Below are positions 1-40,095 of a stretch of 40,095 bases of DNA, in pieces. The stretch comes from a virus. The DNA lies in the IMG/VR virus record IMGVR_UViG_2799112531_000001, positions 1-40,095 of that record; one strand, given 5' to 3'. Each line of letters opens with the position of its first letter. Positions within the stretch are counted from its first letter, which is position 1. The translations under genes and the position numbers were made by a program. Below the pieces are notes generated by a model that had not been told where the DNA came from, ran no database searches, and worked only from the letters and a program-made list of their open reading frames with translations.

Positions 1-99
1 TGGTCCACAGGCCCTTGCCCATGCAGGCGATCACCAGGTCCCCGTTGTCCAGCGCCGCCTTGGCTTGGGCGTGATAGGGGCTGTTGGCGTTGCCGTAGA
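1..99. repeat. 99-bp terminal direct repeat, copy A (identical to 39997..40095)
   Basis: Read directly: the first 99 bases equal the last 99 bases. This is the typical overlap of a circular molecule linearised by an assembler. Confidence 0.95.
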
Positions 100-2961: not shown

Positions 2962-3020
2962 TTGCTTGTGTTTGCTTCCGGCTTGCTTGGCGTTGCTTGC
3001 CGCTTGCTTATAACTTGCTT
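2962..3020. repeat. Six helically phased TTGCTT repeats (AAGCAA on the minus strand)
   Basis: TTGCTT starts at 2962, 2972, 2983, 2993, 3004 and 3015 (spacing 10-11 bp). They fill the intergenic gap immediately after the terL stop. Confidence 0.9.
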
Positions 3021-4527
3021 ACCCGGCGCCCAGATAGGAGGCCGTGACCTCGCCGCCGCACATATAGGAGGTGTAGTCCTCGCCGGCCTCATCGTCGTCG
3101 TAGTCCAAAATATCCATGAGACTGATCTTCTTCCTTCCGGCCTGGTCCTCTGCCTGGGCGGGGAGGACGCGGGAAATGGCGTAATATCGAACACCGTCCA
3201 CGGTGTGGGTGACCTCGTGGGGGTCCTTGGCGCAGTCGTCGGGGTTGTTCTCGTCGGCCTGGATGTCCTGGAGGTCTCCGATGACCCCCTTGCAGGTCCG
3301 GTCAAAGAACATCATGCCGGGCAGGGTCTCCGGGCTCTTCCCGTCCTTGTCCTTGAAGAGGGCCCGGACGTAGGGATCGTTCAGGGGCTTGGGGGCCAGC
3401 GCCTCCTTGATGAGGTTGTGGCCCTGGACCCGGTTGTTGCTGGCCTTGACCAGCCCGATCCCGTTGAGCATGAAGAGCTCCGCCATAGTCTTGCCGGTGT
3501 CCTTCTGTCTCGACCACATATCCGGCGGGGCGTAGGTGGCGAAGGGCTCCTGCCCCTCCGGGGTGAGGTCGTGCATCTTGGCCGCCGCCTCCCGGACGAT
3601 GAGGCCCTTCCGGGTGTATTCCCGGACGCACCAGGACCGCCCGTCCTCGTCTACCGCCCACCAGAAGCAGGCGAACATATCCAGGCCGTAGTCGAAGGAG
3701 CAGTACCGCGCCCAGTGCTTGGGTATCTCGAAGGGCTTGCAGGTGTGGAGCCCCACGGAGAATTCCGGGAAGTAGTTGCCCCCGATGGCGTTCCAGTCGC
3801 CGTAGCGATAGGCCCGCCGCTTGTCCTCAGGCATATTGGCCAGCATCCGCACGTAGCCGGGGGAGGATTCCATCAGGTGATAGTTGTCCTCCACCGTGGC
3901 GAAGATGAAGTTGTAGTCCTCGGGGTTTTCGTTCTCCTCGGGATTGTCCGGGTTCTGCTTGTACTGCTTGTCGATAAACAGCCGCTTCACCCATCGGTGC
4001 CCGACGCCCCCGGGGTTGCAGGTGAGGTACATCCGCTTGGGGAATTGGTTGACGCCTCTCAGACAGCCCCCCAGGAAGTTGAAGGACCGTTCCGAGAACT
4101 GGGTGGCCTCGTCGATGAAGATCCAGTCGTATTCCAGACCGTTGTACTCGTCCTCGGAGGCGTCGCCACTCCAATGCCCAAACTTGATGGTGGACCCGTT
4201 GTGGAAGGTCATGAGGTGGGTGGTGGCGTTGTAGGACGCCAGCTCCCTGGGCACCATCTTCACAACAGGCCGGATGTGGTTCTCCTCCAGCTCCGGGTAG
4301 GTCCGGCGCATAATGAGGATTTTGATGCCCGGGTTGGCAATGGCCCCGCCGACGGCTTTAATGCGGACGGCGTGGGTTTTGCCGCCGCCCTTGGCCCCGC
4401 CGTAGGCGGTATAGGTGGCCCGGGACTGATAGAAAAGAAGCTGCTTGGGGTTCGCCTCGCCGGCGTCCCACACCACATCCTTCTTCTGGCTTTTCTGGAT
4501 CGGTTTCCGTTTCGCCGTGAAGCTCAC
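3019..4527 (-). CDS. terL: Terminase large subunit
   Basis: Walker A YGGAKGGGKTHA, Walker B WIFIDEATQF, C-terminal nuclease-type half, 502 aa. The annotated GTG start has a poorly spaced SD, so the true start may be a downstream GTG (about aa 18-19). Confidence 0.9.
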   Translation of the reverse strand: MSFTAKRKPIQKSQKKDVVWDAGEANPKQLLFYQSRATYTAYGGAKGGGKTHAVRIKAVGGAIANPGIKILIMRRTYPELEENHIRPVVKMVPRELASYNATTHLMTFHNGSTIKFGHWSGDASEDEYNGLEYDWIFIDEATQFSERSFNFLGGCLRGVNQFPKRMYLTCNPGGVGHRWVKRLFIDKQYKQNPDNPEENENPEDYNFIFATVEDNYHLMESSPGYVRMLANMPEDKRRAYRYGDWNAIGGNYFPEFSVGLHTCKPFEIPKHWARYCSFDYGLDMFACFWWAVDEDGRSWCVREYTRKGLIVREAAAKMHDLTPEGQEPFATYAPPDMWSRQKDTGKTMAELFMLNGIGLVKASNNRVQGHNLIKEALAPKPLNDPYVRALFKDKDGKSPETLPGMMFFDRTCKGVIGDLQDIQADENNPDDCAKDPHEVTHTVDGVRYYAISRVLPAQAEDQAGRKKISLMDILDYDDDEAGEDYTSYMCGGEVTASYLGAG

Positions 4528-4599
4528 CCCTTTTCACTTTGAATTGGTCCCCCGTCCCGGCCTTGCACCGAACTATGCGCCTTCTGCGCCGGGGGATGA

Positions 4600-4618
4600 G
4601 GGAGGCTTGACGCCTCCC
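4600..4618 (-). promoter_or_regulatory. Hairpin GGGAGGC-ttgac-GCCTCCC in the terL leader
   Basis: Perfect 7-bp inverted repeat read in the sequence, with no adjacent U-run. Confidence 0.5.
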
Positions 4619-4659
4619 CGCGAAGGGAGATAGATGGAGAAAGAAACTATCCCGCACGT

Positions 4660-4689
4660 GCCGGAGGGAAAGAAGCCAAACCCCCCGGC
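4660..4689 (-). promoter_or_regulatory. 9-bp stem hairpin directly 3' of the tRNA
   Basis: On the minus strand: GCCGGGGGG-uuuggcuucuuu-CCCUCCGGC (one G-U pair), beginning 1 nt after the tRNA CCA. A U-rich stretch follows about 15 nt later. Confidence 0.5.
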
Positions 4690-4690
4690 A

Positions 4691-4764
4691 TGGCACCGAC
4701 AAATGGAGTTGAACCATTTCCCGCGGGGTCAAAACCCGCCGTGCTTCCGTTACACAATATCGGC
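4691..4764 (-). tRNA. tRNA-Gln (anticodon UUG), CCA encoded
   Basis: Hand-folded cloverleaf, 74 nt. Acceptor GCCGATA/TGTCGGT (two G-U pairs). D arm GTGT-AACGGAA-GCAC. Anticodon arm GCGGG-TTTTGAC-CCCGC (U33, anticodon TTG, A37). Variable loop 4 nt. T arm AATGG-TTCAACT-CCATT. Discriminator G followed by CCA. Confidence 0.8.
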
Positions 4765-4770
4765 ATACAG

Positions 4771-4823
4771 CAAAACCCCGGAGAGAAGGCCGCCGCGTGT
4801 CCGCAGCAGCCCCTTTCCGGGGT
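4771..4823 (-). terminator. Long imperfect hairpin plus UUUUG (intrinsic-terminator-like) immediately upstream of the tRNA
   Basis: On the minus strand: ACCCCGGA-AAGG-gg-CUGCUGCG-gaca-CGCGGCGG-CCUU-cuc-UCCGGGGU followed by UUUUG. Confidence 0.6.
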
Positions 4824-4876
4824 CTCGTCTGTTTGGAGGAAAACAGAAATGCGAAAGGAGAGATCTATGCTTCTGC
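4771..4876 (-). ncRNA. Candidate 105-nt promoter-proximal leader or sRNA
   Basis: Bounded by the consensus promoter (4883-4911) and the terminator-like hairpin. Contains hairpin CUGUUU-UCCUCC-AAACAG (4829-4846), whose loop is complementary to GGAGGA Shine-Dalgarno sequences. Contains no ORF. Confidence 0.3.
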
Positions 4877-4882
4877 ACCTTA

Positions 4883-4911
4883 AGTATACTATCCGTATTT
4901 TCTCATGTCAA
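4883..4911 (-). promoter_or_regulatory. Near-consensus sigma70-type promoter TTGACA-17 nt-TATACT
   Basis: -35 at 4906-4911 and -10 at 4883-4888 on the minus strand, exact 17-nt spacer, embedded in an AT-rich patch. Confidence 0.7.
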
Positions 4912-4954
4912 TACAAATACTATAAGTAATCAAACGGCACAAAAAATAAGCCCT

Positions 4955-5113
4955 CTACCCGATAAGAATCGTCAGCGTGGTTTCCTTCGGCCACCGCTTC
5001 CCTTGATAGGGCATGACCCGGACGGACACGAACAGCCTTTCCCGACACATGATCCGGTTGATCTCCTCCATCACCTCTGCCAGGTCCTTCCTGTCAATAT
5101 GAAGCCGCGTCAT
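4955..5113 (-). CDS. Hypothetical 52-aa protein
   Basis: ATG at 5113 preceded by GGGAGGGGA with 4-nt spacing. MTRLHIDRKDLAEVMEEINRIMCRERLFVSVRVMPYQGKRWPKETTLTILIG. No recognisable motif. Confidence 0.45.
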   Translation of the reverse strand: MTRLHIDRKDLAEVMEEINRIMCRERLFVSVRVMPYQGKRWPKETTLTILIG

Positions 5114-5166
5114 TCCATCCCCTCCCAATGGGCATAGTACGCCCCCTTGTGCCACCCTTTGTTATT

Positions 5167-5435
5167 TCTGAACGGGTACCTTTTCTCGAAGGGTACCCCC
5201 TCTTTTTCCGCCCGGGGTCTTTGTTTAACTTTCTGAAAGATTGGCTGTCTCGTGGTTATCTTTTGAAAACCCTTTGTTTTTCACGAGATTCTAACTTGCC
5301 GGTAACTTTCTGCGGTTGATGTTGAAGAAGTGGTTTTCAGGTGGGTCTGAAGCGCGCGTGACTGAGGGGGATGTTTTGGGAAGCGTCTGAAATGTGCGTG
5401 GTGAAGTGTTTCCGGATAGGTCTGAAACGTGTATG
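5167..5435. repeat. Five same-orientation TCTGAA repeats, three of them 15-mers (TCTGAAGCGCGCGTG, TCTGAAATGTGCGTG, TCTGAAACGTGTATG)
   Basis: TCTGAA starts at 5167, 5232, 5346, 5386 and 5421. There is also a GGGTACC/GGTACCC hairpin at 5174-5198. Confidence 0.8.
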
Positions 5436-5482
5436 TAATATTCTTTACGGGAAAATTTTTTCCGCCGCCCGTTTTTCCGGGT

Positions 5483-5575
5483 GGGGGGATAAGGTCCATC
5501 AAAAAATCATCCACCCCGGACCGGCCCCGGACCGGCGGCACAGCACCACCCCACCCCGGGGACCTTATCGCCCCC
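5483..5575. repeat. Long-range inverted repeat GGGGGGATAAGGTCC / GGACCTTATCGCCCCC enclosing a C-tract/G-tract field
   Basis: The arms lie at 5483-5497 and 5560-5575. Inside is a perfect tandem CCCCGGACCGG x2 (5514-5535). Downstream lie CCCAGG x2 and CCTGTCAG x2 (about 5575-5630). Confidence 0.8.
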
Positions 5576-5676
5576 AGGCCCAGGCCCCCGGACCCTCCAG
5601 CCGAAATCCCCTGTCAGAATCCTGTCAGCCGAGCGGAGCACCGTTTGTAATTGACGTTTCCGTAAAGGTATAAGGT

Positions 5677-6123
5677 TTACTTGAACGCCTCCAGCCCGCC
5701 GATCCCGTCAATCTTGATCGTAACGGAGCTGTCGTTCTGCTGCTGTTGGATGTCCTGATACCCGCCGTTCTTCGGCTGCTTCAGCTGGAAGATAACATTA
5801 CTCGATGTAGTCCTGCTCTTCTCCAGCTCCTTTACCAACCGATCTTCCCGGTAGGCCACCAGCTTTTTTACAGCGTCTTCGGCCTCTCTTTTGTCTCTCT
5901 CCTCCCACACCTTCTTCTCCTCATCCGTCTTACACCGATGCTCCCAGGCGCCGCCGTCAGGGTTCCGGCCTTTGGAGAGGTATTCGTATTCGCTGGGCTT
6001 CACGCCGAGATAAGACCAAAGGGCGTGATCCGTCGGAGCGAAGCCTTCCGCCTGGGAAAGCTCGATGAAAGCGTTGATATGCTTGACAAAATCGGAGATG
6101 TTTGCAATATTCTTTCTTCTCAT
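5677..6123 (-). CDS. terS: Terminase small subunit
   Basis: 148 aa, RBS AAGGAGG. The N-terminal HTH-like segment and C-terminal ...NVIFQLKQPKNGGYQD resemble Firmicutes-phage small terminases. It lies upstream of terL. Confidence 0.7.
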   Translation of the reverse strand: MRRKNIANISDFVKHINAFIELSQAEGFAPTDHALWSYLGVKPSEYEYLSKGRNPDGGAWEHRCKTDEEKKVWEERDKREAEDAVKKLVAYREDRLVKELEKSRTTSSNVIFQLKQPKNGGYQDIQQQQNDSSVTIKIDGIGGLEAFK

Positions 6124-6151
6124 TCTGCATACCTCCTTCCTTGTTGTAGGT

Positions 6152-6190
6152 AAAAGAAAAGCGGCCCTGACAATAATGTCTGGCCGCTTT
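6152..6190 (-). terminator. Intrinsic terminator-like hairpin about 30 nt upstream of the terS start
   Basis: On the minus strand: AAAGCGGCC-agacattattgtcag-GGCCGCTTT followed by TCTTTT. Confidence 0.65.
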
Positions 6191-6422
6191 CAAAATAAAC
6201 AATTTTCGCTGGTATGCTCTGGAGCAGGGCGCCGGCGACGCTTACCGCTTGTCGCCTTGCGCGTTTACTTATCCCGCCCACCAACCTAGCATATTTTTTT
6301 GCAAAAGTCAAGTGTTCCTAGTCAAATTTATGCATTATAACGCGTTCATTTAATTATTTAGTAGTATTGCACAGAGTATACTTATACTATTTGTGCATTA
6401 TTATTGTTGCGGACGCAACATT

Positions 6423-6629
6423 TTAAGGGTTTTCGGTCTCTTCGGGGCTTCCTTGGGAAATATACGCCTCCATCGCCTCCCGCAGCACGGTATTGACCCG
6501 ATCACCCCGAGCAGCACACGCGGACTTGAAATCATCCAGGAGCTGACGCCGCACCTTCACCGTCTGATACGCCATGTTATCAGCGTCCCACTTCGCGTTG
6601 CTGGCCTTCTTCGCCTCACTGACTGCCAT
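6423..6629 (-). CDS. Ribbon-helix-helix (CopG/Arc-like) DNA-binding protein
   Basis: 68 aa: ...KKASNAKWDADNMAYQTVKVRRQLLDDFKSACAARGDRVNTVLREAMEAYI. This is the pattern of small RHH regulators. RBS GGAAGGAG. Confidence 0.65.
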   Translation of the reverse strand: MAVSEAKKASNAKWDADNMAYQTVKVRRQLLDDFKSACAARGDRVNTVLREAMEAYISQGSPEETENP

Positions 6630-6665: not shown

Positions 6666-6695
6666 ATTATATGCGCGAGGGCGGCACGTTGTAAA
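6666..6695 (-). promoter_or_regulatory. Promoter TTTACA-18 nt-TATAAT for the RHH gene
   Basis: -10 at 6666-6671 and -35 at 6690-6695 on the minus strand. The -35 overlaps the first CACGTTGTAA repeat. Confidence 0.55.
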
Positions 6696-6768
6696 GTGTA
6701 CGACCTGCACAAAAACACGTTGTAACTTTTGTGCGTTTCACCGCTAGACAAGGCACGTTGTAACGTGC
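6685..6768. promoter_or_regulatory. Three direct CACGTTGTAA repeats (operator-like); the third forms the 16-bp palindrome GCACGTTGTAACGTGC
   Basis: Copies at 6685, 6716 and 6754, in the divergent region between the RHH gene and the plus-strand operon that starts at 6822. Confidence 0.75.
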
Positions 6769-7810: not shown

Positions 7811-7898
7811 AACGCAGAGTGACAGCCCTACGGGGCTGGTAATGCGGGACCCGAAAGGGTGCGGTCACAACCCCGCGAAACAAAAGGAGGTAAACACC

Positions 7899-8415: not shown

Positions 8416-8495
8416 GACAGAAAAATGACAGACAATCCCGCACCAGGCCATTCCAGACCATTCCATTTTACGCCACAAAAACAGCAAAACAAAAA

Positions 8496-8555
8496 ACGCC
8501 CTACCGCTTGTCCCACAAGGCTTTTCCTTGTCTCACAAGTGATAGGGCGTTTTTG
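8496..8555. terminator. Bidirectional terminator-like structure downstream of int, containing two 13-bp palindromes
   Basis: Outer stem ACGCCCTA/TAGGGCGT flanked by an A-run and a T-run. Inner palindromes CTTGTCCCACAAG (8507-8519) and CTTGTCTCACAAG (8527-8539). Confidence 0.6.
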
Positions 8556-8596: not shown

Positions 8597-9670
8597 TCAC
8601 CCATTCCCTTTCATCTCAACCACTTTCCCCTCCCCGACAGAATCCCGACAAAGAAAAGCATTCAACTTCCCCGCGCTTTCCTCCCGTCTCTTATTCCGGA
8701 TATGGGTATAGACATTCCTGGTCACAGCAATAGAGGAATGCCCCATCACTTCCTTCGCGTCCATCTCCTCGATCCCCGCCTCAAAAAGCAAGGTAGCGTA
8801 AGCATGGCGGAACTGATGGGGAGAAACCGAAGGCCGCCGGTTTTTGTTGAGCCACCCATGATCCCGGCAAAAGGCATACCACATGGCGTTATACTCCGAC
8901 AGCGTAAGGGGCGACACCCCGCCGAAGATGTAGCCCTTGCCCTTCTTCGCCAGCACCGGCCGCAGCTTATCCAGCAGCCACACGCTCCGCTCTCCGGCGC
9001 TGGTCTTGGGCGTCTTGAGCCTGGGGGAATCCCCCTCATAATAGACCGACTGTCTGACATGGATCACGCCGGCCTCCAGATCCACGTCATCCCACCGGAG
9101 CCCCAGCAGCTCCCCCCGCCGCAGGCCGGTATAGAGGAGGATAAACGCGAACAGCCCGCCGCCGGTCTTCTCCCCCTGATCCACGGCCCGCAGAATGTCG
9201 TCAGCGGGCGGCTCCCTCCTGTTGTCTCGGAGCCCTTTGGGAAGGTGTACGGGAGCACAGGGGTTATTCTCGGCCCATCTCTGGATGATGGCATAGTTGT
9301 ACGCCATGTTCAGGCAATTCAGCCGCATCTGAACGGTGCGCCGCTTAAAGTCCTTTGCCGCCAGCCACCGGAGGAAGGCGTCCACCTCATCGGCCCGGAC
9401 CTCCCGGATATACTTGCCGGCGAAATACTCCTTGATATCCTTCACCGGCTGATCGTAGGCCCGAATGGAGCTGGGGGAGACCTGCCCCTCATGCCACGCC
9501 TGCCAATCGTCCACGCAGGCCGCCAGCGTCCGGCCCTTCTCCTGTCCCTGGACAAAGGCGGCCATTTTCTTTTTGACCTCCGCCTGGGTCTTTCCGTAGA
9601 AGTATTTATAGGACTTCATCCCCGGCAGCTTGACCTGCTCCTGCCACCGTCCGTCTTTTCGCTTTAACAT
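8597..9670 (-). CDS. int: Tyrosine recombinase / phage integrase
   Basis: 357 aa. C-terminal ...HQFRHAYATLLFEAG...GHSSIAVTRNVYTHI (R-H-R-Y catalytic pattern), N-terminal SAM-like domain. RBS AGGAGG. Confidence 0.9.
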   Translation of the reverse strand: MLKRKDGRWQEQVKLPGMKSYKYFYGKTQAEVKKKMAAFVQGQEKGRTLAACVDDWQAWHEGQVSPSSIRAYDQPVKDIKEYFAGKYIREVRADEVDAFLRWLAAKDFKRRTVQMRLNCLNMAYNYAIIQRWAENNPCAPVHLPKGLRDNRREPPADDILRAVDQGEKTGGGLFAFILLYTGLRRGELLGLRWDDVDLEAGVIHVRQSVYYEGDSPRLKTPKTSAGERSVWLLDKLRPVLAKKGKGYIFGGVSPLTLSEYNAMWYAFCRDHGWLNKNRRPSVSPHQFRHAYATLLFEAGIEEMDAKEVMGHSSIAVTRNVYTHIRNKRREESAGKLNAFLCRDSVGEGKVVEMKGNG

Positions 9671-10207: not shown

Positions 10208-11029
10208 TTAATCAATCCCTGGATCACAACGTCCGCAAGGATCATAACCCTGATCTCTTAATTCTTGACCCGTTCCGGTCCAATACAGTTTGTTTCCTTC
10301 ATTCATGTCGTCTACACTTGAACAAGTTGGTTCGTGGTATTTCTTTGAGCTTTTGTTCGCAATATAGGTTACGTCAGAGTTTTCATCTGTTTCGAAAATG
10401 TGGTCCATCGGCTCCCCGTCCTCAACCACAAAATCATAGTTTTCGGTGCTTTGCTCTGATGTCTCCTGGCCGCTTTGCTCTTCTTCGTTATTTTCTAACT
10501 GCGCTTCTGCATGCTGTAAATTTGTATTTGCAACATACAAGGCATAATTGGCTGAGTTGTACGCATTATTTCTATCAATCGCAAAGCCGCTTGCCGCCGC
10601 AAGTGCAATACACAGGGCTGTAATGGCCGCAACAAATGGCTTTTTGCTCTTGTCTTTCGCCGGAACCTCAACATAAACCGGCTTCGCAACCTCTTGAACA
10701 ACTCTAACCGGCGGTTCTTCAACCTGTTTCTGCAAAAGGCTGTTTTCTCGTTCTTTCTGCTCCAGCCGCATCCGCAGCCATGCGCATTGTTCTTTCCAGT
10801 ATCTTTCGTTGATCCGTCCATCTCCACCGGCATCATATAATTCTTTCAGCAGTCGAGCGTGAAGGCACACTTCATAATCCCGATAATTATAGATTGTTTC
10901 CATTGTGTAAGGATTCAATTTCCCACACATTTCAGTAAAAGGATGATCCTCGATCAATTCATTCAATCGACGCTTGTAAAAAGAATCGAAATCTTCAGGC
11001 AACGGGATTTTGACTTGATCCTCATCCAT
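10208..11029 (-). CDS. Single-pass membrane protein with a C-terminal Ada-like Cys/His zinc motif, co-transcribed with the repressor
   Basis: ATG at 11029 overlaps the repressor stop by 8 nt. TM PFVAAITALCIALAAASGFAI, then an acidic linker. C-terminus: KKYHEPTCSSVDDMNEGNKLYWTGTGQELRDQGYDPCGRCDP (pattern YHxPxC...GYxPCxxCxP). Confidence 0.75.
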   Translation of the reverse strand: MDEDQVKIPLPEDFDSFYKRRLNELIEDHPFTEMCGKLNPYTMETIYNYRDYEVCLHARLLKELYDAGGDGRINERYWKEQCAWLRMRLEQKERENSLLQKQVEEPPVRVVQEVAKPVYVEVPAKDKSKKPFVAAITALCIALAAASGFAIDRNNAYNSANYALYVANTNLQHAEAQLENNEEEQSGQETSEQSTENYDFVVEDGEPMDHIFETDENSDVTYIANKSSKKYHEPTCSSVDDMNEGNKLYWTGTGQELRDQGYDPCGRCDPGID

Positions 11030-11771
11030 ACACGCTCGCCTCCTCCATCCACTCCGGATCAAGCACCCCAATCACCAACCCATTACACCAACTATCTTCC
11101 GTCAGTGGAATCGAATCGTAAGCGGGGTTTAGAGAAATCAATTCCCCGTTCCCTCGCTTTTTTACATATCCATCCCCATTCACAGAAAACACGCCGATCT
11201 GTCCCAACGGAATATCCTCGCAGCCTTCCACCAAAAGAATGTCCCCATCATGATAGACGGGCTCCATGCTATCCCCGCTAACAGCCCCGCAGAAGGACGC
11301 CCGCCGGGTTAACTCGTTTTCCTGTACATAGATGGTTTCCATCTCCTCAGGCCCAAGGTAAACACCAGTCCCCGCGCTGAAGCTCTGAAGCGAACGAGAA
11401 AGAGGAATCATATTGTTCTTCCTACCAACCCTGGCTCTGCGTATCTCTTTCATACGCTCCATTTCATGTCCCAATACCGTATCAACAATCCTTTTACCGC
11501 GGTCATCCAGGCCTCGGTATTTTTTTATGTGCTCCATCTCCGCGGGAGACACAGAATGTGCAATACGTAGAGCCATTTCATCTTGAAAAAGGTAATTAGC
11601 GTCAATGTCTAGTGCTTGGATGATTTTTGCAAAAGTAAGCATACTGGGTTCGCTGTTGCCTTTTTCATATCCGTTATATGTAGACTTCCCTACTCCAATC
11701 ATCGTTGCAAGCTGTTCCTGCGTCAAACCTTTTTCTTTTCTTGCAGTCTTCATCCTGTCCGTGTATGCCAT
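11022..11771 (-). CDS. CI/LexA-like repressor (XRE HTH plus S24 autopeptidase domain)
   Basis: ATG at 11771 with RBS GGGAGGTGA. HTH LTQEQLATMIGVGKSTYNGYEKG. S24 motifs GDSMEP (Ser) and YVKKRG (Lys). Confidence 0.9.
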   Translation of the reverse strand: MAYTDRMKTARKEKGLTQEQLATMIGVGKSTYNGYEKGNSEPSMLTFAKIIQALDIDANYLFQDEMALRIAHSVSPAEMEHIKKYRGLDDRGKRIVDTVLGHEMERMKEIRRARVGRKNNMIPLSRSLQSFSAGTGVYLGPEEMETIYVQENELTRRASFCGAVSGDSMEPVYHDGDILLVEGCEDIPLGQIGVFSVNGDGYVKKRGNGELISLNPAYDSIPLTEDSWCNGLVIGVLDPEWMEEASVYG

Positions 11772-11806
11772 CTCGATTTCACCTCCCGTGATTCGTTTGT
11801 GATGAT

Positions 11807-11835
11807 AGAATATCAAGATTCTATGAATCAGTCAA
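11807..11835 (-). promoter_or_regulatory. Repressor promoter candidate TTGACT-17 nt-TATTCT
   Basis: -35 at 11830-11835 and -10 at 11807-11812 on the minus strand. Small palindromes TAGAAT/ATTCTA and GATTC/GAATC overlap it. Confidence 0.55.
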
Positions 11836-21609: not shown

Positions 21610-21914
21610 ACCCCATGCTGGCCGGCATCGAGGCCAGGCACCAGCGGGACATTGCCCGCCAGCGCTCCTTCACCCTCCAACAGTGCTGCGACATGATGCT
21701 CATTGCCGCCAACGCCGCCTTCGGCTTCGGTCCGGACCGCCTCTCCAAGCTACAGGAAACCTACGAAGCGGTGTTCCTGGAATATGCGGAAATGGCCGTC
21801 TCTGACGGGGCGGACGACCCGGAGATCGTTTACACCCGGGCCAAGGTGGACCAAAAGCTGGAGCAGATATTGGGGGACCGGTTCGTCCCTTGGGAGGCGC
21901 GGTATGGAGCATAA
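21594..21914 (+). CDS. Hypothetical protein (106 aa)
   Basis: In the ORF track; overlaps its neighbours by 16 and 11 nt; protein-like. Confidence 0.6.
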   Translation: MAKPVNPMLAGIEARHQRDIARQRSFTLQQCCDMMLIAANAAFGFGPDRLSKLQETYEAVFLEYAEMAVSDGADDPEIVYTRAKVDQKLEQILGDRFVPWEARYGA

Positions 21915-22161
21915 GAGCAATCTCGGCAAAGCCCTGGTCCTTCTCCATGTCCTGGTGGACGAAACCAGAGAGGACGCGCCGATGACAAAGCGCCAGCTTT
22001 TGCGGCGCTGTGAGGACAAGGGGGGCTTCTACCTCCACCCGAAAACCTTTGACAGGTACATCCGGGATATGGCACAGGGCGGGATCGTCATCCGCCGGCG
22101 GGTGGATATTGGCAAGGAACGCAACGCCCAACTGTTCTGGTACGCGGATGGATGGATTTAA
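21904..22161 (+). CDS. Small winged-helix-like DNA-binding protein (85 aa), candidate late regulator
   Basis: ATG at 21904. MTKRQLLRRCEDKGGFYLHPKTFDRYIRDMAQGGIVIRRR resembles wHTH proteins. The functional role is inference only. Confidence 0.5.
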   Translation: MEHKSNLGKALVLLHVLVDETREDAPMTKRQLLRRCEDKGGFYLHPKTFDRYIRDMAQGGIVIRRRVDIGKERNAQLFWYADGWI

Positions 22162-22684: not shown

Positions 22685-25600
22685 TCAGATGGCCCATTCC
22701 TTCCCATAAACATAGTAATACGCTTCCTCAAAAGATTTGTTGAAGGCCTTGCTTCCACGTTTGTTGTTCGTGTCCTTGAACGCAGAGGGCCATTCGTTCC
22801 TGGGAATACCAGATTGTTCGCAGGCTTTGAAGAATCCGTGATAGGACTGCTCGTTTGCAGCTACAGCCGACCTGAATGCGTCTATGTCCTCCTGAGGTGC
22901 GTCTCCCCAAATGGCGTTCGTCTCCTTCTTCTTCGTCTCCTCTTTCCCTTGTTTCTTCATGAAGGAATCGAAGGTTCTGTTGACGCCATTCTCCTTCCAG
23001 GCATTGTCTCCTCTGGCGGCCTGGATGCCGTCGAAGGCGGCCTTCTGCTGTTCGTAAGTGCCGCCCATGTTGAGGATCGCATCGTAAGCCTCCGCCTGGT
23101 TCATGCTGGCGAGGTTGCCTCCGCAGGCATCCATGAGGGAGGTCTGCATCTCGTTGGGCAGGGCGGAAATATACTTGTCGATATTTGCCTGAATCCTGGC
23201 CTTTTCATCCGCTTCGGCCTTGTACTCGTCATAGGTTTTACTTGTGCCGTTGTATATATCGAACAGAGCTTTCTGCTCGTTCTCAGACAGTCCGTTGGTT
23301 TTGGTCATGTCCTGGATACCGTCCCAGGCCTCTTCCGTCTTGACGGTGCCGTTGCCGTCTGCGTCGTACTTGGTATCCATCGTCAGACTGGCCCGCAGCA
23401 GAGCGGACACTTCAACGCTGTGCTCCGCTGCGGCGCTGTCCAGCTTTGCGATCCACTCTGGGACCTTGTCCGGATTCTCGCCGGCTGCCTGTTTGCCCTT
23501 CACCGTTGCATACTTCTCTAGTTTGCTCAAGTAATCTGCCTTGTCTGCGTCAGCTAGTTCCTTGTACTCATCGGAGTTGATAGCCTGCGTATAGAGGTCC
23601 TTCATGGTCTGGCCCTTCACGCTCTGGAGAAGGTTGAATTGCTCCATGCTCATAGGCTCGCCGTTGATTTTCGTGCTGGTTTTCTCAATGGTCGGGAATA
23701 CATTAAAATCGTTGTCATAGAGCCGTTGCAACTCTGCCTCTACTTCGCCGCCCTGTTCTTTCTTGATATAACCGGGGCTGATGAAGTTGGAGAAAATGCG
23801 GAGGGCCGGATTTCCGGTCATTTCCGGTTCGCCCCATGCGTTCAGATATTCCCGCTGGTGATACTCGCCAGGCAGCTTGTTGAAGGTCTTGCCAAGCAGG
23901 TATTGTATCTCGCTGGGAACCGCCGAATCCCGGTCTATCCAGGTGCTGTATCGCCGGTCCTCAAAGCTTCGCTCGATCTGCCCGCCGATGGTGGGAACAA
24001 ATTGGGTCAGGTACCCTGTGGCAAGCGTGCTGATGACTGACATGAATTTATTGTCTGCATAGCTCAGATTGTCCAGAAGGTCGTTGACCCCTTGCAGCAT
24101 GGACATTTCCAACATGGGATCAGAAATTCGCCGCAGGAAATTCCAAACGACATCTTTCCCTTTTTCTCCTACCCGAATGTCTTGTATCCCTTTTTGCAGC
24201 TCCACCCCCATAAAGAAGGGAATTGCTTCGGGTGCCAGCCAATCCAATGTGACGTTGTATCCCCCGGGAAGATTGAGGGCATAACTCTGTTTCCCTAAAA
24301 GCTGGTTAAACCTGTTCTGAGTGTCGTCCTCATCGTCGCCGGGAGTGACGATCCCCACCAGGCCCAAAACAGCGCCAAGACCCGCCAAGGCCGTTCCGGT
24401 CAGGCCGGAGGCCAGTTCGTCGATGCCCTGGGCCGCTGTCATTTCTCCCTTCCTGACCTTGATGCCCATATCTGCAATGCCTTTGATCAAGCCGATAGGA
24501 GAGTATTCGATCCCGCGTACCAGGACATTTGCCGGGGTCTTTTTGAAGGGAAGAAGGCCCTCTGTCAGGTAATGAACTCCTTTTTCAAAGGTTGTTTGGG
24601 GCGTTCCACCAAGCTTCTTCATGATAAACTGAGAGAACTGGTTCAGGTCCCGGTAAGTGGCCTTCTGCGCTTCTTCGATTGCGATGGCCTGAATCGCCTC
24701 TCTCGTCTGCGGAGAAAAGGCCGGGTCGGTGTATTCCTCTGCCGTGATTCCTCTGGCTTTCAGGACCCCCGCCAGACTGTCGGCATAAGTCCGCTTGGCA
24801 AAGAACACGTCGCCCTTCTCTAAGCCTGCGTTGGTCAGTTTCCGCCAGCCCTCAAATGGTTTGAATCGGAATATGGTTCGGTACTGGTCAATGTCGGAAA
24901 ACGTATCGTTGTACTTCCCGTTCCCCATAATGATTGATTCAACAGAATCATATTCCGCCAACCCGGCGTCATATCTTGCCTTGTCCGCCCTGGAAAGCCC
25001 TTTGAATTGCAGGCTTTTCGTCCGCTCTGACGGGTCAAGCCCCATCATCCGTTCCAGACCTGCGCCGATCATGTTCTTGGCGATTCGCACCGGTTGGAAG
25101 CCCAGGTTGCCAACGATATTTCGTATCTGTGTTCTGGGATTGCCCAACATTGCCATGTACCGCCAGGCGTCCAGCTTGTCCCCCAACGTGTTGGGAATTT
25201 GCTGAGCAATGGCTTTCTTGATTTCTGTCTCTATGGCAAGCTGTTCTTCCTCGGTCTGGGCCTCCATATACGCTTTGCCCAGGTCCTCCGGGATGGTGAT
25301 CCCGTCCCAATGCTCTGCGTCCAGCTTCTTATTCTGACGGATTTTATTTTCCAGCTTTTCCAGAGAAGACGCCAGGGAATAGAGCTTTCCGGTGGGTCCC
25401 AGCTTGTTGATGATATTGACGGCCTGTAAGACTTGACCGGCGGTTTTCCCGTACTCGATCATCTCGATTGCCAGGTCCATAGCCTCCACGATATGCCCAG
25501 AATTTGCGGCGTTGTTATACAGGACGATGCCCATAGTGGTCAGGTCCTTGCTCATCTTCCCGGCGTGAATGTCAGAGAGCCAGCTTTCCTTTGCACGCTG

Positions 25601-28600
25601 ATACCCCTGTTCGTTGATGATCCGTTCCGCCTCTGCTGTCGCCGCGCTGTCCGTATACGGAATGCGGGACAGTTGCCCGTTCCGTGCCATCTCTGCCAAC
25701 CCCCGGCTGATTTGATCCGGGGTCATACCGGCGTTGATAAGGGTGGAGGCGGTTTTACTGGTCAACTGCCCGAAGGGGTCCCGAACAGGGATGTCAACGG
25801 GGGCTCGTCCCCAATTCTCAGCTTCGGCTTCAACAGCCCGGTCGTTGATGGGGTGGAATTGGTCGGTGCCAAGCTGCCAGTCAGAGAGGGGATCAAACCC
25901 TCCCGGCGCAGCCCCCACGCTCCACTTCTCCCGAATCGCCCTCTCTTCCTCCAGCATCCGGGCAAGCTGCTCGTTGAAGAACTCCTGGTTGAAGCCGTCC
26001 GTCTCCGCTTCCTCCATAAGGATTTCCATGCGCTCCTGGAGGTCGGCCAGCTCCTCTTCCTCAGACTGGAAAGAAGATTCTGTGGTTTCCGCAAAATTCC
26101 CGTTGCTATTTTGATCCTGCTGTGGTATACTTGTTTCAGAATCGGAAGTTACTACGGTGCCTGACCCTTGGGTACGCCCGTCTGATGTAGCTTCCGGTTC
26201 TTTTTTTTCGCCATAAATTAGATCGCCGTTCTGGTCAACGACTTCATGTAAATAGTATTTGTTGCCTCGGCCTTTATACTCATTAACAATTACGCCAATT
26301 ATGCGCGGAGAACCCTTATACATTACTGGTCCGGCAAAGACATAAGAATCATACCCGCGTCCTTTCCAGTTAGGTTCAAAACCAATCTGATCTCCTTTGG
26401 AAATTACCTCTGGCACGCCTGCCATTAGTTCTATCTTTGCGTCACTTACTCCGTGGCCGATAAAACTGCTCTTTATTTTGTTTTTAGAAAACAAGACGTC
26501 GCCAAACCCAGGGCGCAACACGGACATGCCTATTCGGTTCAAGAAAGAAAACACTCGCTCAGTAGCTCGTCCTTCTTTTGGAATTTCAGTTCCGTCCAAA
26601 ACAGCAACAGGCTCCATGTTGTTCAAATCTTCGAGATTGTTTTGCAGATGTTCGACCAAAGCATCGAAATCGGTCCCCTTAGGATGGTGCGGCCTCTCGG
26701 GCTGTACTGCTTCCTCCGCCTCCGGCGGAGTATTTTTTAAGTTTTGACCGGTGGCAAGTGATCTACCCGATACGATTTGGATTTGATCGTCATTAAATGC
26801 AATATACACCCGATGCCTGGTATTATCCTTTTTATTGAATCTTCCTCCGCCGATATGGGTAATCCCGTCATAACCCAAATTGAATTGTAAAAAGTCACTG
26901 GCTGCCTCTTCACCTTGGAATTTATAATAACCTAGGTCGGCCAGATTCTCTTTCAGGGCTCGGAAACAGTCCTCGTTTGTTGGCTGTCCCTTCAGCTCTA
27001 GCAAATACGAGACGTCAAGGTCTTCGTTCTCTCGGAATGCTCCGATCCACTCCTCCATGTTGGCCGGAGCATCCATGTCAATGGGGTTACGAATGGAGAG
27101 ATATGCGGAATAGACACCCGGTTTCTGGCCCTTTCCTTTTTTTGTGTAGCTTTCAGCCACAGTCGGATCATCGGTAAAGTAGGAACCGTAGCCGAACAGC
27201 CCAAAACTGGAGCTGTATGGGTCAAAACGATCAAATCCATATTTGCTTGTGCCATGATACATAAGTTTCGGAGACCCGTCTGCCTGCACAACCCGGCTTC
27301 CATCAAACCATTTCTTAAATTCTTCCGATTCCTGATTCTGCCCCGCTTCCCACTCAGCCCGCAGCTCCTCTTCCGTCACCTCGCCCAGCTCCAGAGACAG
27401 CGCATTGTCCCGGAGAACCTGTTCAAAGGACCCCCGGGCCACGCCTCCGGCGATCCCTTCCTTGGTGCGGATGTAATCCTGATTCGCCCCGATCCGGGCG
27501 TCCGGATTCCCGCCAGCCTCCACCGGGGTATACCCGTTGGACAGCATATCGTCCAACGCCAGCTCCACCAGCTTGGCCGCCTTCACGTTCTCCTGGCCGT
27601 GGTCGCTGATGAGGGCGTCGCAGGCCTTGAGGATGTCTGTAGAGGACAGCCCCAGGTCGTGGAGCTTCCGCAGGGGCTCATTCCTCGCCATGAGAGTACC
27701 GGTCTTCCGCCCCAGAGCCCGGTCCTTGTTGGACCCCCGCACCGTCTGACGGCTGGCAAGGGAGGCCTCCACCTCTGTCTTGAGGGCCTGGGCCGCCTCC
27801 TGATAGAAGGGCTTGATCTCCGGGTGGTCCCACTGGAACGCCTTCACCTTCCGGTCCCCCAGCGCCCCGGCGTCCCGGTTGTCGATGTGGTTCTCCGGCT
27901 GACCGTACTGCCGAGACGTCGCACGGGCCGTTTCCTGGCCCTCTGCGGGCGTTTCCGTCCGGGTGGTCTCGGCTGCCTGCTCAGCACCGGGAACCGTCTG
28001 GGGCCGTCCTGCGGTCTCCTGCGGGGCCTCCTGCGCCGCGTTCTCCCTGCCTCCCCTTGCCAAGGGGAGGGGGACCGGCGAAGCCGGTGGAAGGGTGGAA
28101 ACGTCGCTGTCCCGCACCGCCTGAGCCTCCGGGCGCTCCTGTTCCGCTCTCTGCGCTTCTTCCGCCTGCCGCTGTGCCTGCTGTGCCTTCTCCTGCTCCA
28201 CCTGGGTCCGCTGTGCCTTCTGCATTTCCAACCCCACAAGCTGTTGCCGGAGTTGTTCCCCCTGGGCCTGGTGCTGGGCCAGCTCGTTCAAAAGATGCTT
28301 GTGCCAGGTGGGGTCCTGCTCGGTGAAGGTCATGCGATCAAGCAATTCGGTTGCCCGGTTCTTCCATGCCTCGATCTGATCCTGGATGGCGGCTTCCCGC
28401 TGGGCCAGCTCGTCCACCGTGGGGGTCACCCGGTCCATGGCGGCGGTGGTTCTGTCCGCCTGTTCGGTCTGCCCTCCGGTCCGTCCGCTTCTCCTCGCGC
28501 CGATCATCCCGGCCCCGGCTCCCATGCCGATGGAGGTCAGGGCGGAGATAGCCGCCGTGTCGAGAAGGTCCCGGGCGGTCAGGGAGGCGTTGGGGTCCTT

Positions 28601-39526: not shown

Positions 39527-40095
39527 TCAGTCCATCCCCAGCTTCTCCGCCGTCTCGTTGGCGTTCTTGTCTCCGGGGAGCAGGCCCAGCCGGCCCAGCA
39601 TGGCAACGACCTCTACCCGCTTGGCGGGGCGCTCCGGGGCGGAGCCGTCGGTAACATCCGCCTTGACGGCCTTCTGCCACCAGCCTTCTTCCCGGCTCCA
39701 GTCCGGTTCCGGCTGGACGCTCATGGCCTTAAGGGCCTTCCGCACCAGGACCAGGGCCTCCTGGTCTGTGAGGTTTTCGATGATGGTCTTGACTTCCTTC
39801 TCGGTCATGTCCGGTTCCTCCTTTTTCGGTTCGGGTTCCGCCTTTTTCTTCGGCGCCTTGATGATCCAATACAGCTTGACCTGCTGCTTGAATACCAGAT
39901 AATTCCCGTGGGTCCGTGCCATCCTGGTTGAGGCGGGGTCATTGATATACACCATGTTCCCCTCGATCTTCCATACCAGCACATAATGGCCGGAGCTGGT
40001 CCACAGGCCCTTGCCCATGCAGGCGATCACCAGGTCCCCGTTGTCCAGCGCCGCCTTGGCTTGGGCGTGATAGGGGCTGTTGGCGTTGCCGTAGA
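39527..40095 (-). CDS. Endolysin, 3' part (end of peptidase domain, K/E/P linker, C-terminal putative wall-binding domain); last 99 nt duplicate 1..99
   Basis: ORF-track protein ...GKGLWTSSGHYVLVWKIEGNMVYINDP... followed by linker KKKAEPEPKKEEP and a roughly 90-aa C-terminal domain. It joins the 1..385 frame. Confidence 0.8.
   Translation of the reverse strand, partial: YGNANSPYHAQAKAALDNGDLVIACMGKGLWTSSGHYVLVWKIEGNMVYINDPASTRMARTHGNYLVFKQQVKLYWIIKAPKKKAEPEPKKEEPDMTEKEVKTIIENLTDQEALVLVRKALKAMSVQPEPDWSREEGWWQKAVKADVTDGSAPERPAKRVEVVAMLGRLGLLPGDKNANETAEKLGMD
39997..40095. repeat. 99-bp terminal direct repeat, copy B (identical to 1..99)
   Basis: Read directly; see copy A. Confidence 0.95.

What the first reader, a model, noticed from the sequence alone, without database searches (positions are those of the whole stretch)
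4600..4911. Consensus promoter, anti-SD hairpin, strong terminator-like hairpin, then tRNA and terL: a lambda PR'/tR'-like late switch or a phage sRNA
On the minus strand, TTGACA-17-TATACT (4883-4911) is followed by hairpin CUGUUU-UCCUCC-AAACAG. Next comes a roughly 50-nt extended hairpin ending in UUUUG (4771-4823), then tRNA-Gln, two more hairpins and the terL start.

Two readings are possible. One is a short constitutive transcript that ends at the terminator unless an antiterminator allows read-through into terL and the late genes, as with lambda Q at PR'-tR'. The other is a stable sRNA whose UCCUCC loop could pair with GGAGGA ribosome-binding sites.
Basis: inference. Interest (0 to 1): 0.65.

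Follow-up and report, generated by a model that had tools for sequence, protein, structure and literature searches.

The report
Promoter–terminator gate before phage terL
A gut or rumen Oscillospiraceae phage has a strong promoter followed about 100 bases later by its strongest terminator, just ahead of a tRNA and the DNA-packaging genes, so its late genes probably depend on controlled read-through, as in phage lambda but without lambda's known proteins.

Summary
On the minus strand there are, in order:
- TTGACA-17-TATACT (4911..4883), one of only four near-consensus promoters in this complete 39,996-bp circular temperate phage genome.
- Two CU-rich boxes.
- A -38 kcal/mol hairpin with a U-tract (4823..4772), the most stable terminator-like hairpin on that strand.
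- A functional tRNA-Gln.
- terL.

The promoter-leader-terminator unit is invariant in 11 strain variants. It is kept as an architecture in a sister lineage that is about 65% identical (L338), where the tRNA in the same slot has become tRNA-Arg. The "UCCUCC loop" hairpin is not conserved there.

Across the phage clade, 61 of 149 non-redundant relatives carry a strong terminator ending within 45 nt of the terL start; 2.7 are expected. A second promoter-terminator pair sits in front of terS.

The best reading is a terminator gate on the late operon that also yields a roughly 105-nt RNA. This resembles lambda PR'/tR', and 933W, where tRNAs follow tR', in layout only. I found no Q, N, RinA/ArpU or sigma homologue and no pause element, so the read-through mechanism is unknown. 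A trans-acting anti-SD sRNA is a weaker rival that is not excluded.

Moderately interesting; a new variant of a known kind.

The parts
4955..5113 (-). orf52, a 52-aa gene directly upstream of the promoter. It occurs only in the lineages that carry this cassette.
   Evidence: ORF reading. No Pfam, PHROG or PDB match. Only three homologue clusters among 5.8 billion proteins, at 98%, 77% and 57% identity. The AF2 model is of low confidence (pLDDT 69) and Foldseek gave no significant hit.
4913..4928 (.). Operator-like 16-mer (core TACT-N3-AGTA) abutting the -35 hexamer. An inverted copy lies at 6379..6394.
   Evidence: these are the only two copies with at most 1 mismatch in the genome (0.02 expected for matches with up to 3 mismatches). 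A palindromic equivalent, AATACTATAAGT, sits in the same place in L338.
4883..4911 (-). Sigma-70/sigmaA-type promoter, TTGACA-17-TATACT. The predicted start is near 4876. The palindrome AGTATACT (4883..4890) overlaps the -10 hexamer.
   Evidence: Both hexamers are invariant in 11 strain variants. L338 has TTGACA-18-TATAAT in the same position. The AGTATACT palindrome occurs only here and at 6375..6382.
4853..4862 (-). CU-rich box CUCUCCUUUC, about +15 to +24 of the transcript. It resembles the CCUCCUUUC box found at the same distance from the promoter in relatives L066-L070.
   Evidence: the distance from -35 to the box is 49-50 nt in the window and in L066-L070.
4829..4846 (-). Small hairpin CUGUUU / UCCUCC loop / AAACAG.
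   Evidence: It is not in the minimum-energy fold of the isolated transcript. It is absent in L338.
4771..4823 (-). T2, a long GC-rich hairpin followed by UUUUG. It is intrinsic-terminator-like.
   Evidence: -38.3 kcal/mol, the strongest on the minus strand. Strain variants change only G.U to A.U at the stem base and UUUUG to UUUUU. L338 keeps a different long hairpin plus UUUUCUAU, ending 6 nt before its tRNA.
4691..4764 (-). tRNA-Gln(UUG), with CCA encoded.
   Evidence: L214 and L216 show compensatory anticodon-stem changes with the anticodon kept.
4528..4690 (-). Structured spacer between the tRNA and terL, including hairpin 4689..4660. L001 carries an extra tRNA-Thr here.
3019..4527 (-). 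terL, the terminase large subunit and first large late gene.
   Evidence: Pfam Terminase_3/Terminase_6N and PHROG terminase large subunit.
6375..6394 (.). Second copy of the operator-like sequence, ACAAATAGTATAAGTATACT. It lies about 64 nt upstream of the terS promoter.
   Evidence: It is conserved in L001, although L001's RHH protein is only 38% identical.
6283..6311 (-). P_terS, TTGACT-17-TAGGTT with TG at the extended -10 position.
   Evidence: Direct reading. L002 has TTGACT-17-TAGGAT in the same place.
6152..6187 (-). T1, a terminator-like hairpin plus UUUUCUUUU directly before the terS ribosome-binding site.
   Evidence: It is kept in L002 and L339, with a different inner stem in each.
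5677..6123 (-). terS-like gene (148 aa).
   Evidence: Assigned by position and N-terminal HTH-like sequence. No Pfam or PHROG hit. Homologues sit next to terL in relatives.

Best explanation
This is a real promoter-terminator pair at the head of the phage's packaging and structural operon.

Inferred events:
- Host sigmaA RNA polymerase starts near 4876.
- It transcribes a leader of about 50 nt holding two CU-rich boxes.
- Most polymerases stop at the long hairpin and U-tract (T2, 4823..4772), releasing an RNA of about 105 nt.
- tRNA-Gln, terL and every structural gene lie behind T2. No further consensus promoter follows on that strand, so they are expressed only when polymerase reads through T2.

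T2 is the local version of a terminator 'gate' that this phage clade keeps directly in front of terL. A twin promoter-terminator pair (P_terS and T1) guards terS.

The gate most likely keeps late genes silent in the lysogen. It would be opened in the lytic cycle by an antitermination device that is not yet identified. Candidates are a small protein loaded at the promoter, or a cis-acting RNA in the conserved non-coding stretch between terS and terL. The palindromic operator-like sites flanking the promoter would add a DNA-binding regulator on top.

Shown: the sequence elements, their statistical rarity, their conservation, and the clade-wide terminator position. Inferred: promoter activity, termination, read-through and its control.
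For: - Promoter: an 11/12 match and one of four such sites in the genome, against 0.15 expected. All four lie in sensible intergenic positions.
- T2: the most stable terminator-like hairpin on the late strand. The only other intergenic ones on that strand are T1 before terS, the bidirectional hairpin behind the integrase gene (8554..8490) and the end of the late operon.
- Transcript fold: z = -6.5.
- Strain variants: the unit is invariant in 11 variants apart from changes that keep or improve the terminator.
- Sister lineage: L338/L339 has orf52 at 77% amino-acid identity. It keeps the operator palindrome, TTGACA-18-TATAAT, a leader of about 48 nt with a CU tract, a long hairpin plus U-tract and a tRNA 6 nt later. 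The primary sequence differs and the tRNA identity has changed.
- Clade: 61 of 149 non-redundant relatives have a hairpin of -18 kcal/mol or stronger, plus a T-run, ending -45 to +12 from the terL start. That leaves no room for a promoter. 2.7 are expected.
- Related pairs such as L169/L170 and L102/L109 keep the stem with changes on both sides.
- T1 before terS is kept in three lineages, with a different inner stem in each.
- Genome: circular and complete (99-nt terminal repeat), so the late strand runs 6695 -> 1 -> 22685.
- Precedent for the order: 933W is annotated pR' - qut - terminators - tRNA genes - late genes.
- Precedent for the logic in Gram-positive mobile elements: terminator insulators plus processive antitermination, as in conAn (PMC8191782) and Tn916 canT (PMC11658703).
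Against: - There is no transcript data.
- No antiterminator was identified. No Q, N, NusG-like, RinA/ArpU or sigma homologue was found among the proteins scanned. orf52 has no informative fold match.
- The U-tract is short (UUUUG) in the window.
- T2 could simply be leaky.
- Polymerase coming from P_terS could supply the late genes, which would make P4911 dispensable for them.
- 59% of relatives lack a terL-proximal terminator by my criteria.
- The relatives are phylogenetically related, so the enrichment P-value overstates independence.
Confidence: 0.5

Rival explanations
1. Stand-alone trans-acting sRNA gene, moron-like. The 105-nt RNA is the product. Its exposed CU-rich boxes (CUCUCCUUUC and UUCCUCC) would pair with Shine-Dalgarno regions of host or phage mRNAs. 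T2 is simply its terminator. Late transcription comes from upstream and passes through.
For: - It has its own strong promoter and strong terminator.
- Both CU boxes are unpaired in either predicted fold.
- CCUCCUUUC equals the 3' end of 16S rRNA (my own knowledge). It recurs at a fixed distance from the promoter in relatives L066-L070.
- An IMG/VR pattern scan found many unrelated phage contigs with a consensus promoter, then a CU box, then a terminator within about 60 nt. Examples are L253, L294, L287 and L258.
Against: - The UCCUCC hairpin is missing in L338. Its CU tract is predicted to be paired with the 5' end.
- There is no Rfam family match.
- The best duplex in the phage genome falls in a purine-rich coding stretch of terS, not at a translation start, and I did not test its significance.
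- The pattern scan enforced the promoter and the box, so only the downstream terminators are independent evidence, and that is uncalibrated.
- It does not explain why terminators sit in front of terL in relatives that have no nearby promoter.
Confidence: 0.2
2. tRNA promoter with a structured 5' leader. P4911 exists to express tRNA-Gln, plus tRNA-Thr in L001. The long hairpin would be a leaky terminator, or a processing or stability element of the pre-tRNA.
For: - The tRNA starts 6-7 nt after the U-tract.
- It is under purifying selection.
- tRNA cassettes upstream of terL are common in the clade.
- 933W also has a putative tRNA promoter.
Against: - A -38 kcal/mol hairpin plus U-tract between a promoter and its gene is not normal tRNA gene architecture.
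- The hairpin and U-tract are kept in L338 and improved (UUUUU) in L001 and L213.
- In other relatives the tRNAs lie upstream of the terminator, with no consensus promoter nearby.
- CAA codons are not enriched in late genes.
Confidence: 0.15
3. Antisense pair. The CU boxes are the reverse complement of two Shine-Dalgarno sites for a 26-aa plus-strand ORF (4849..4929, MRKERSMLLHLKYTIRIFSCQYKYYK). The minus-strand RNA would be its antisense regulator, like a type I toxin-antitoxin system or P22 sar.
For: - GGAGGA-9 nt-ATG and AAAGGAGAG-ATCT-ATG (about 4 nt) lie in frame on the plus strand.
- In relatives a CAT lies 4-9 nt upstream of most CCTCCTTTC boxes.
Against: - The reverse ORFs are 0-57 aa long and unrelated in sequence; one 350-aa reverse frame in L039 looks like a chance GC-rich ORF.
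- 53 of 80 pattern hits have no reverse ORF at all.
- The peptide is not hydrophobic.
- No plus-strand promoter-like site lies upstream of it.
Confidence: 0.05

Closest known systems
Lambda PR' - 6S RNA - tR' late switch with Q antiterminator
   Same: A strong sigma-70-type promoter is followed within about 100-200 nt by an intrinsic terminator, giving a short RNA. All late genes lie behind it on one strand. A small gene lies directly upstream of the promoter.
   Different: - No Q-family protein was found.
- No recognisable -10-like pause element or known QBE is present.
- The host is a Firmicute (Oscillospiraceae).
- terS lies upstream of the promoter with its own promoter-terminator pair.
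- Operator-like palindromes flank the promoter.
Stx phage 933W: pR' - qut - terminators - tRNA genes (ileZ, argN, argO) - late genes
   Same: The same order of promoter, rho-independent terminator(s), tRNA gene(s) and late genes, as annotated in AF125520.
   Different: 933W has Q and qut, plus a separate putative tRNA promoter. There is no sequence or protein homology to the window.
Cis-acting or bipartite processive antitermination in Gram-positive mobile elements (conAn of pLS20, PMC8191782; canT of Tn916, PMC11658703) and HK022 put RNA
   Same: Terminators act as insulators at the head of a long operon. A conserved non-coding region lies downstream of a promoter and upstream of the terminators. 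Here these are the C1/C2 motifs, and the A-to-B RNA motif in relatives.
   Different: No homology to these systems was tested or found. In the window only about 50 nt separate P4911 from T2. The long conserved non-coding stretch lies upstream of P4911.
Phage 'moron' cassettes (promoter - gene - terminator inserted between late genes)
   Same: Its own sigma-70-type promoter and a factor-independent terminator sit between two packaging genes. The cassette is lineage-specific: orf52, P, T2 and the tRNA occur only in the window/L001/L338 lineages.
   Different: The only 'cargo' between promoter and terminator is a 50-nt leader. The tRNA lies after the terminator.

Membership tests
Lambda-type Q-dependent late switch | Q-family antiterminator gene (Pfam Phage_antitermQ, or Q82/Q21 types), usually just upstream of the late promoter | tested here: not met
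   orf52, RHH, the 152-aa ORF 21703..22161 that contains the wHTH-like candidate, and most longer early-region ORFs gave no such hit in Pfam or PHROGs. PDB sequence searches were uninformative.
Lambda-type Q-dependent late switch | Sigma-dependent promoter-proximal pause element (-10-like hexamer in the initial transcribed region) | tested here: inconclusive
   Direct reading of 4876..4850. The best -10-like matches are 3 of 6 (CATAGA, TAGATC). No experimental pause data exist.
Lambda-type Q-dependent late switch | Strong promoter followed by an intrinsic terminator giving a short RNA, with the late genes downstream | tested here: met
   No other site of 10/12 or better lies on the minus strand downstream.
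Lambda-type Q-dependent late switch | Factor-dependent read-through of the terminator | not testable with these tools
   This needs transcription assays or RNA-seq.
Intrinsic (rho-independent) terminator | GC-rich hairpin immediately followed by a U-tract on the transcribed strand | tested here: met
   Hairpin of -38.3 kcal/mol, then UUUUG. The tail is UUUUU in L001 and L213, and UUUUCUAU in L338. There is no T-run after the hairpin on the opposite strand (direct reading).
Known sRNA families (Rfam 15) | Covariance-model match at gathering score | tested here: not met
   Only the tRNA and a Twister-P5 ribozyme match in the window. The E-value scan of 4400..6500 gave only chance-level hits.
Trans-acting anti-SD sRNA (RsaE/RoxS-like design) | Conserved, unpaired C/CU-rich motifs plus own promoter and terminator | tested here: inconclusive
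   The promoter and terminator criterion is met. The CU boxes are unpaired in the window. The UCCUCC hairpin is lost in L338, and its CU tract is predicted to be paired.
Gram-positive late activator systems (RinA/ArpU/LtrC, PMC3753634) | Activator gene of these families upstream of terS | tested here: not met
   No Pfam or PHROG hit of this kind. The gene upstream of terS is RHH-like, with weak similarity to the omega repressor (E = 0.036).

The most novel reading that the evidence does not exclude
Oscillospiraceae temperate phages would use an undescribed processive antitermination system. A conserved terminator gate in front of terL (and of terS) would be opened by a lineage-specific small protein such as orf52, or by a cis-acting leader RNA. 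The promoter-proximal CCUCCUUUC leader family, and the A-to-B RNA motif in relatives, would be that RNA element, acting like put or canT. Alternatively these could be phage sRNAs that mimic the 3' end of 16S rRNA.
Probability: 0.2. Interest if true: 0.7.

Novelty: new variant of a known kind. Interest (0 to 1): 0.45.

Why it matters
Late-gene control in temperate phages of Gram-positive bacteria is usually explained by activators (RinA, ArpU, LtrC) at a promoter upstream of terS. Here a whole clade of uncultured gut and rumen Oscillospiraceae phages keeps strong terminators directly in front of terL. At least one lineage has lambda-like promoter-terminator cassettes with no known antiterminator.

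If read-through is regulated, three things follow:
- It points to a new antitermination factor or RNA.
- It explains why variable tRNA and small-gene cassettes accumulate at this spot.
- It gives a compact promoter-terminator-operator module that can be tested in reporters.

Tried and rejected
- Direct homologues for covariation. blastn against INPHARED phages found nothing. Among the 205 loci then held (204 terL-related), the module occurs only in one near-identical contig (L001 = L082). An exact scan for the small hairpin found only that contig and a chance hit. orf52-based scans added strain variants and one diverged lineage. That is too few lineages for a formal covariation test.
- Rfam. 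No family covers the leader or hairpin. gut-2 RNA overlaps the terL-proximal terminator only in the L005/L007 subgroup.
- Reverse-strand gene at the CU box. Rejected as a general explanation, because the reverse ORFs are tiny and non-homologous.
- Codon rationale for the tRNA. CAA is 13% of Gln codons in late genes against 20% in early genes, so there is no support.
- Target search for the leader in the phage genome. The best hit is a purine-rich stretch inside terS, not a translation start, and I did not calibrate it.
- orf52 structure. pLDDT is 69. The best Foldseek hits are KH domains at E > 1, so they are not usable.
- Attenuator idea. The CUCCUUUC box can pair over 8 bp with GAAAGGGG in the 5' arm of the terminator. 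This is far weaker than the terminator and is not kept in L338 (hand reading).
- cos/pac reading of the C1/C2 motifs. Contig ends gave no consistent cut site.
- Literature search on gut-2 found nothing in the library.

Full report
**What the window is.** The window carries a 99-nt direct terminal repeat, so it is a complete circular genome of 39,996 bp. The phage is temperate.
- It encodes a tyrosine integrase (8597..9670, minus strand).
- It encodes a CI-like HTH/S24 repressor (11022..11816, minus strand) next to a perfect 12/12 promoter at +11868.
- A plus-strand early operon includes Sak4, a DnaB-like helicase, a PHROG-478 'recombination directionality factor' hit and a Holliday-junction resolvase.
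- The minus-strand late genes begin with an RHH gene, a terS-like gene, terL and a P22-like portal. They wrap through position 1 and end at 22685.
- Prophage relatives of terL lie mostly in Oscillospiraceae genomes such as Limivicinus, Scatomorpha and Sporobacter.

**The observation.**
- Promoter: TTGACA-17-TATACT at 4911..4883, an 11/12 match.
- Small hairpin: CUGUUU/UCCUCC/AAACAG at 4846..4829.
- Long bulged hairpin: 4823..4776, followed by UUUUG.
- tRNA-Gln(UUG): 4764..4691.
- A structured 160-nt spacer, then terL.

The elements are more than chance would give. Only four sites in the genome reach 11/12, against about 0.15 expected, and all four sit at sensible intergenic positions. The long hairpin, at -38.3 kcal/mol, is the most stable terminator-like hairpin on the late strand. 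The predicted 113-nt transcript folds 6.5 standard deviations better than shuffles.

Two corrections apply. In the isolated transcript the minimum-energy fold replaces the small hairpin by a 5' stem, although the CU-rich boxes stay unpaired. The tool's simple terminator scan did not list the bulged hairpin.

**Close and diverged homologues.** By sequence, the module first appeared only in one near-identical rumen contig, L001 = L082. Looking up contigs that encode exactly orf52, the 52-aa gene just upstream, gave ten more strain variants. In these the promoter hexamers, the CU boxes and the hairpins are invariant. The only changes in the terminator are G.U to A.U at the stem base and UUUUG to UUUUU. 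The tRNA shows compensatory anticodon-stem changes with the anticodon kept, so it is functional.

A protein search with orf52 found one diverged lineage, L338/L339, at 77% amino-acid identity. There the nucleotide sequence of the cassette has drifted to roughly 65% identity. The architecture is nevertheless kept:
- orf52;
- a small terminator;
- a palindromic TACT-N3-AGT site abutting the -35 hexamer;
- TTGACA-18-TATAAT;
- a leader of about 48 nt with a CU-rich tract;
- a different long hairpin followed by UUUUCUAU;
- a tRNA 6 nt later.

The small UCCUCC-loop hairpin is not there. The tRNA in that slot is tRNA-Arg(UCG), built on the same scaffold with 60 of 74 positions identical.

**The clade-wide pattern.** terL-based searches gave 204 related loci. 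The region just upstream of terL is a hot spot for tRNA genes of varying identity, all on the terL strand. Many relatives also carry a very strong hairpin plus T-run ending only 4-25 nt before the terL start, which leaves no room for a promoter. This holds for 61 of 149 non-redundant loci against 2.7 expected from the density of such sites on the same strand. That P-value overstates independence because the loci are related. Sequences differ between subgroups, while related pairs keep the stem through changes on both sides. So terL must be transcribed through a terminator in a large part of the clade. In the window, L001 and L338, the equivalent gate (T2) lies 250-360 nt upstream, with tRNAs inserted behind it.

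**A twin module before terS.** An extended -10 promoter, TTGACT-17-TAGGTT (6311..6283), is followed by a terminator-like hairpin plus UUUUCUUUU (6187..6152). This hairpin lies directly before the terS ribosome-binding site. The hairpin (T1) recurs in L002 and L339 with a different inner stem in each, and the promoter recurs in L002; L339 starts too close to terS to show it. The late strand therefore starts with two promoter-leader-terminator units in series.

**Signs of regulation at the promoter.** A 16-mer, ACAAATAGTATAAGTA, lies at 6394..6379. It recurs inverted, with one mismatch, at 4913..4928, abutting the -35 hexamer of P4911. The palindrome AGTATACT overlaps the -10 hexamer and recurs at 6375..6382. 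Neither sequence occurs elsewhere in the genome; 0.06 chance copies of the palindrome are expected, and 0.02 of the 16-mer even allowing three mismatches. Both sites are identical in L001, although its RHH protein is only 38% identical, so RHH is probably not the binder. L338 keeps a palindromic version upstream of the -35 hexamer. This argues against a simply constitutive promoter.

**Search for the factor.** Pfam, PHROGs and PDB sequence searches were run on orf52, RHH, the wHTH-like ORF (about 21907..22161) and most longer early-region ORFs. None gave a Q, N, NusG-like, RinA/ArpU/LtrC or sigma match. RHH resembles the omega repressor only weakly (E = 0.036). The orf52 model is of low confidence and has no significant structural neighbour.

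**Interpretation.** The best-supported reading is a terminator gate on the late operon. P4911 and T2 make a short RNA of about 105 nt. tRNA-Gln, terL and the structural genes are reached only by read-through. The closest known layouts are two:
- lambda PR'-6S-tR';
- phage 933W, whose record annotates pR', qut, terminators, three tRNA genes and then the late genes, in that order.

Membership in the Q system is not supported, because the Q protein test failed and the pause-element test is inconclusive.

Processive antitermination coupled to insulating terminators is known in Gram-positive conjugative elements (conAn, PMC8191782; canT, PMC11658703). This makes a protein or cis-RNA device plausible here. 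The conserved non-coding motifs between terS and terL are candidates for such an RNA, but that is inference. These motifs are C1/C2 and, in distant relatives, a promoter-proximal CCUCCUUUC box followed by a structured A-to-B motif with some covariation.

**Rivals.**
- A stand-alone anti-SD sRNA fits the exposed CU boxes. It also fits a recurring design of promoter, CU box and terminator in unrelated phage contigs. It is weakened by the loss of the UCCUCC hairpin and the paired CU tract in L338.
- A plain tRNA promoter does not explain a conserved strong terminator between the promoter and the tRNA.
- An antisense or small-ORF reading is weak, because the reverse ORFs are tiny and not conserved.

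None of these can be settled without transcript data.

**Verdict.** This is a new variant of a known kind, of moderate interest.

Noticed in passing
window 7813..7876 (+): A Twister-P5 ribozyme (Rfam RF02684, 56 bits against a gathering score of 37.6). It lies between the DnaJ-domain gene and the DUF6908 gene, on the strand opposite to terL. Relatives carry a Twister-P5 (L002, L071, L184) or a type II hammerhead (L012, L060) 2.3-3.6 kb upstream of terL, on the opposite strand.
   Followed up: partly
window 4691..4764 (-) versus L338 1069..1142 and L339 1383..1456: The tRNA in the same slot is tRNA-Gln(UUG) in the window and tRNA-Arg(UCG) in the sister lineage. 60 of 74 positions are identical, with the same D and T arms. 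Differences lie in the anticodon arm, the acceptor stem (including positions 1 and 72) and the discriminator (G73 versus A73). This is an apparent anticodon and identity switch. L001 carries an extra tRNA-Thr(UGU) 16 nt before terL.
   Followed up: partly
window 5480..5400 (-) and 5211..5160 (-); many loci: Two conserved non-coding motifs lie between terS and terL. They are shared with phages whose terL is only about 50-55% identical.
- C1: CCGGAAAAAnnGG ... TATATA ... CACACGTTTCAGAC. The window has three TTCAGAC repeats.
- C2: GGTACCGGAAAAAGAGGGGG ... AAAAAATAATAAA.
They could be terS (pac) sites, operators or part of a leader RNA. This is unresolved.
   Followed up: partly
L134 409-490, L184 2598-2677, L071 3582-3671, L039, L040, L042, L057, L077, L078: A candidate structured RNA lies downstream of a consensus promoter in distant relatives. 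It consists of a CCUCCUUUC box, a closing helix with GC<->AU/UA covariation around a variable hairpin, ACAAAC, and an invariant hairpin GGCG-UGAAAAU-CGCC. It has no Rfam match and is not present in the window.
   Followed up: partly
window 6685..6764 (-): Three direct repeats of TTACAACGTG surround the TTTACA-18-TATAAT promoter of the RHH gene (6423..6629). They look like operators for autoregulation. RHH is weakly similar to the omega repressor (E = 0.036).
   Followed up: partly
window 1..99 and 39997..40095: A 99-nt direct terminal repeat, an assembly overlap that marks a complete circular genome of 39,996 bp.
   Followed up: yes
window 22685..30550 (-): A 2,621-aa ORF at the end of the late strand. 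Its function was not examined.
   Followed up: no
L005 3901..3948, L007 3902..3949: The Rfam gut-2 RNA motif (RF02990) lies just upstream of, and overlaps the 5' arm of, the strong terminator in front of terL in this subgroup.
   Followed up: partly
window 4849..4929 (+): A 26-aa plus-strand ORF, MRKERSMLLHLKYTIRIFSCQYKYYK, with two in-frame SD-ATG pairs that are the reverse complement of the CU boxes. No plus-strand promoter lies nearby.
   Followed up: partly
L005, L006, L008, L028 (about 600-900 nt upstream of terL): tRNA-like fragments (T-arm-like GGTTCGATTCC / GGTTCAAGTCC segments) that ARAGORN does not call. They are possibly decayed tRNA genes in the cassette region.
   Followed up: no
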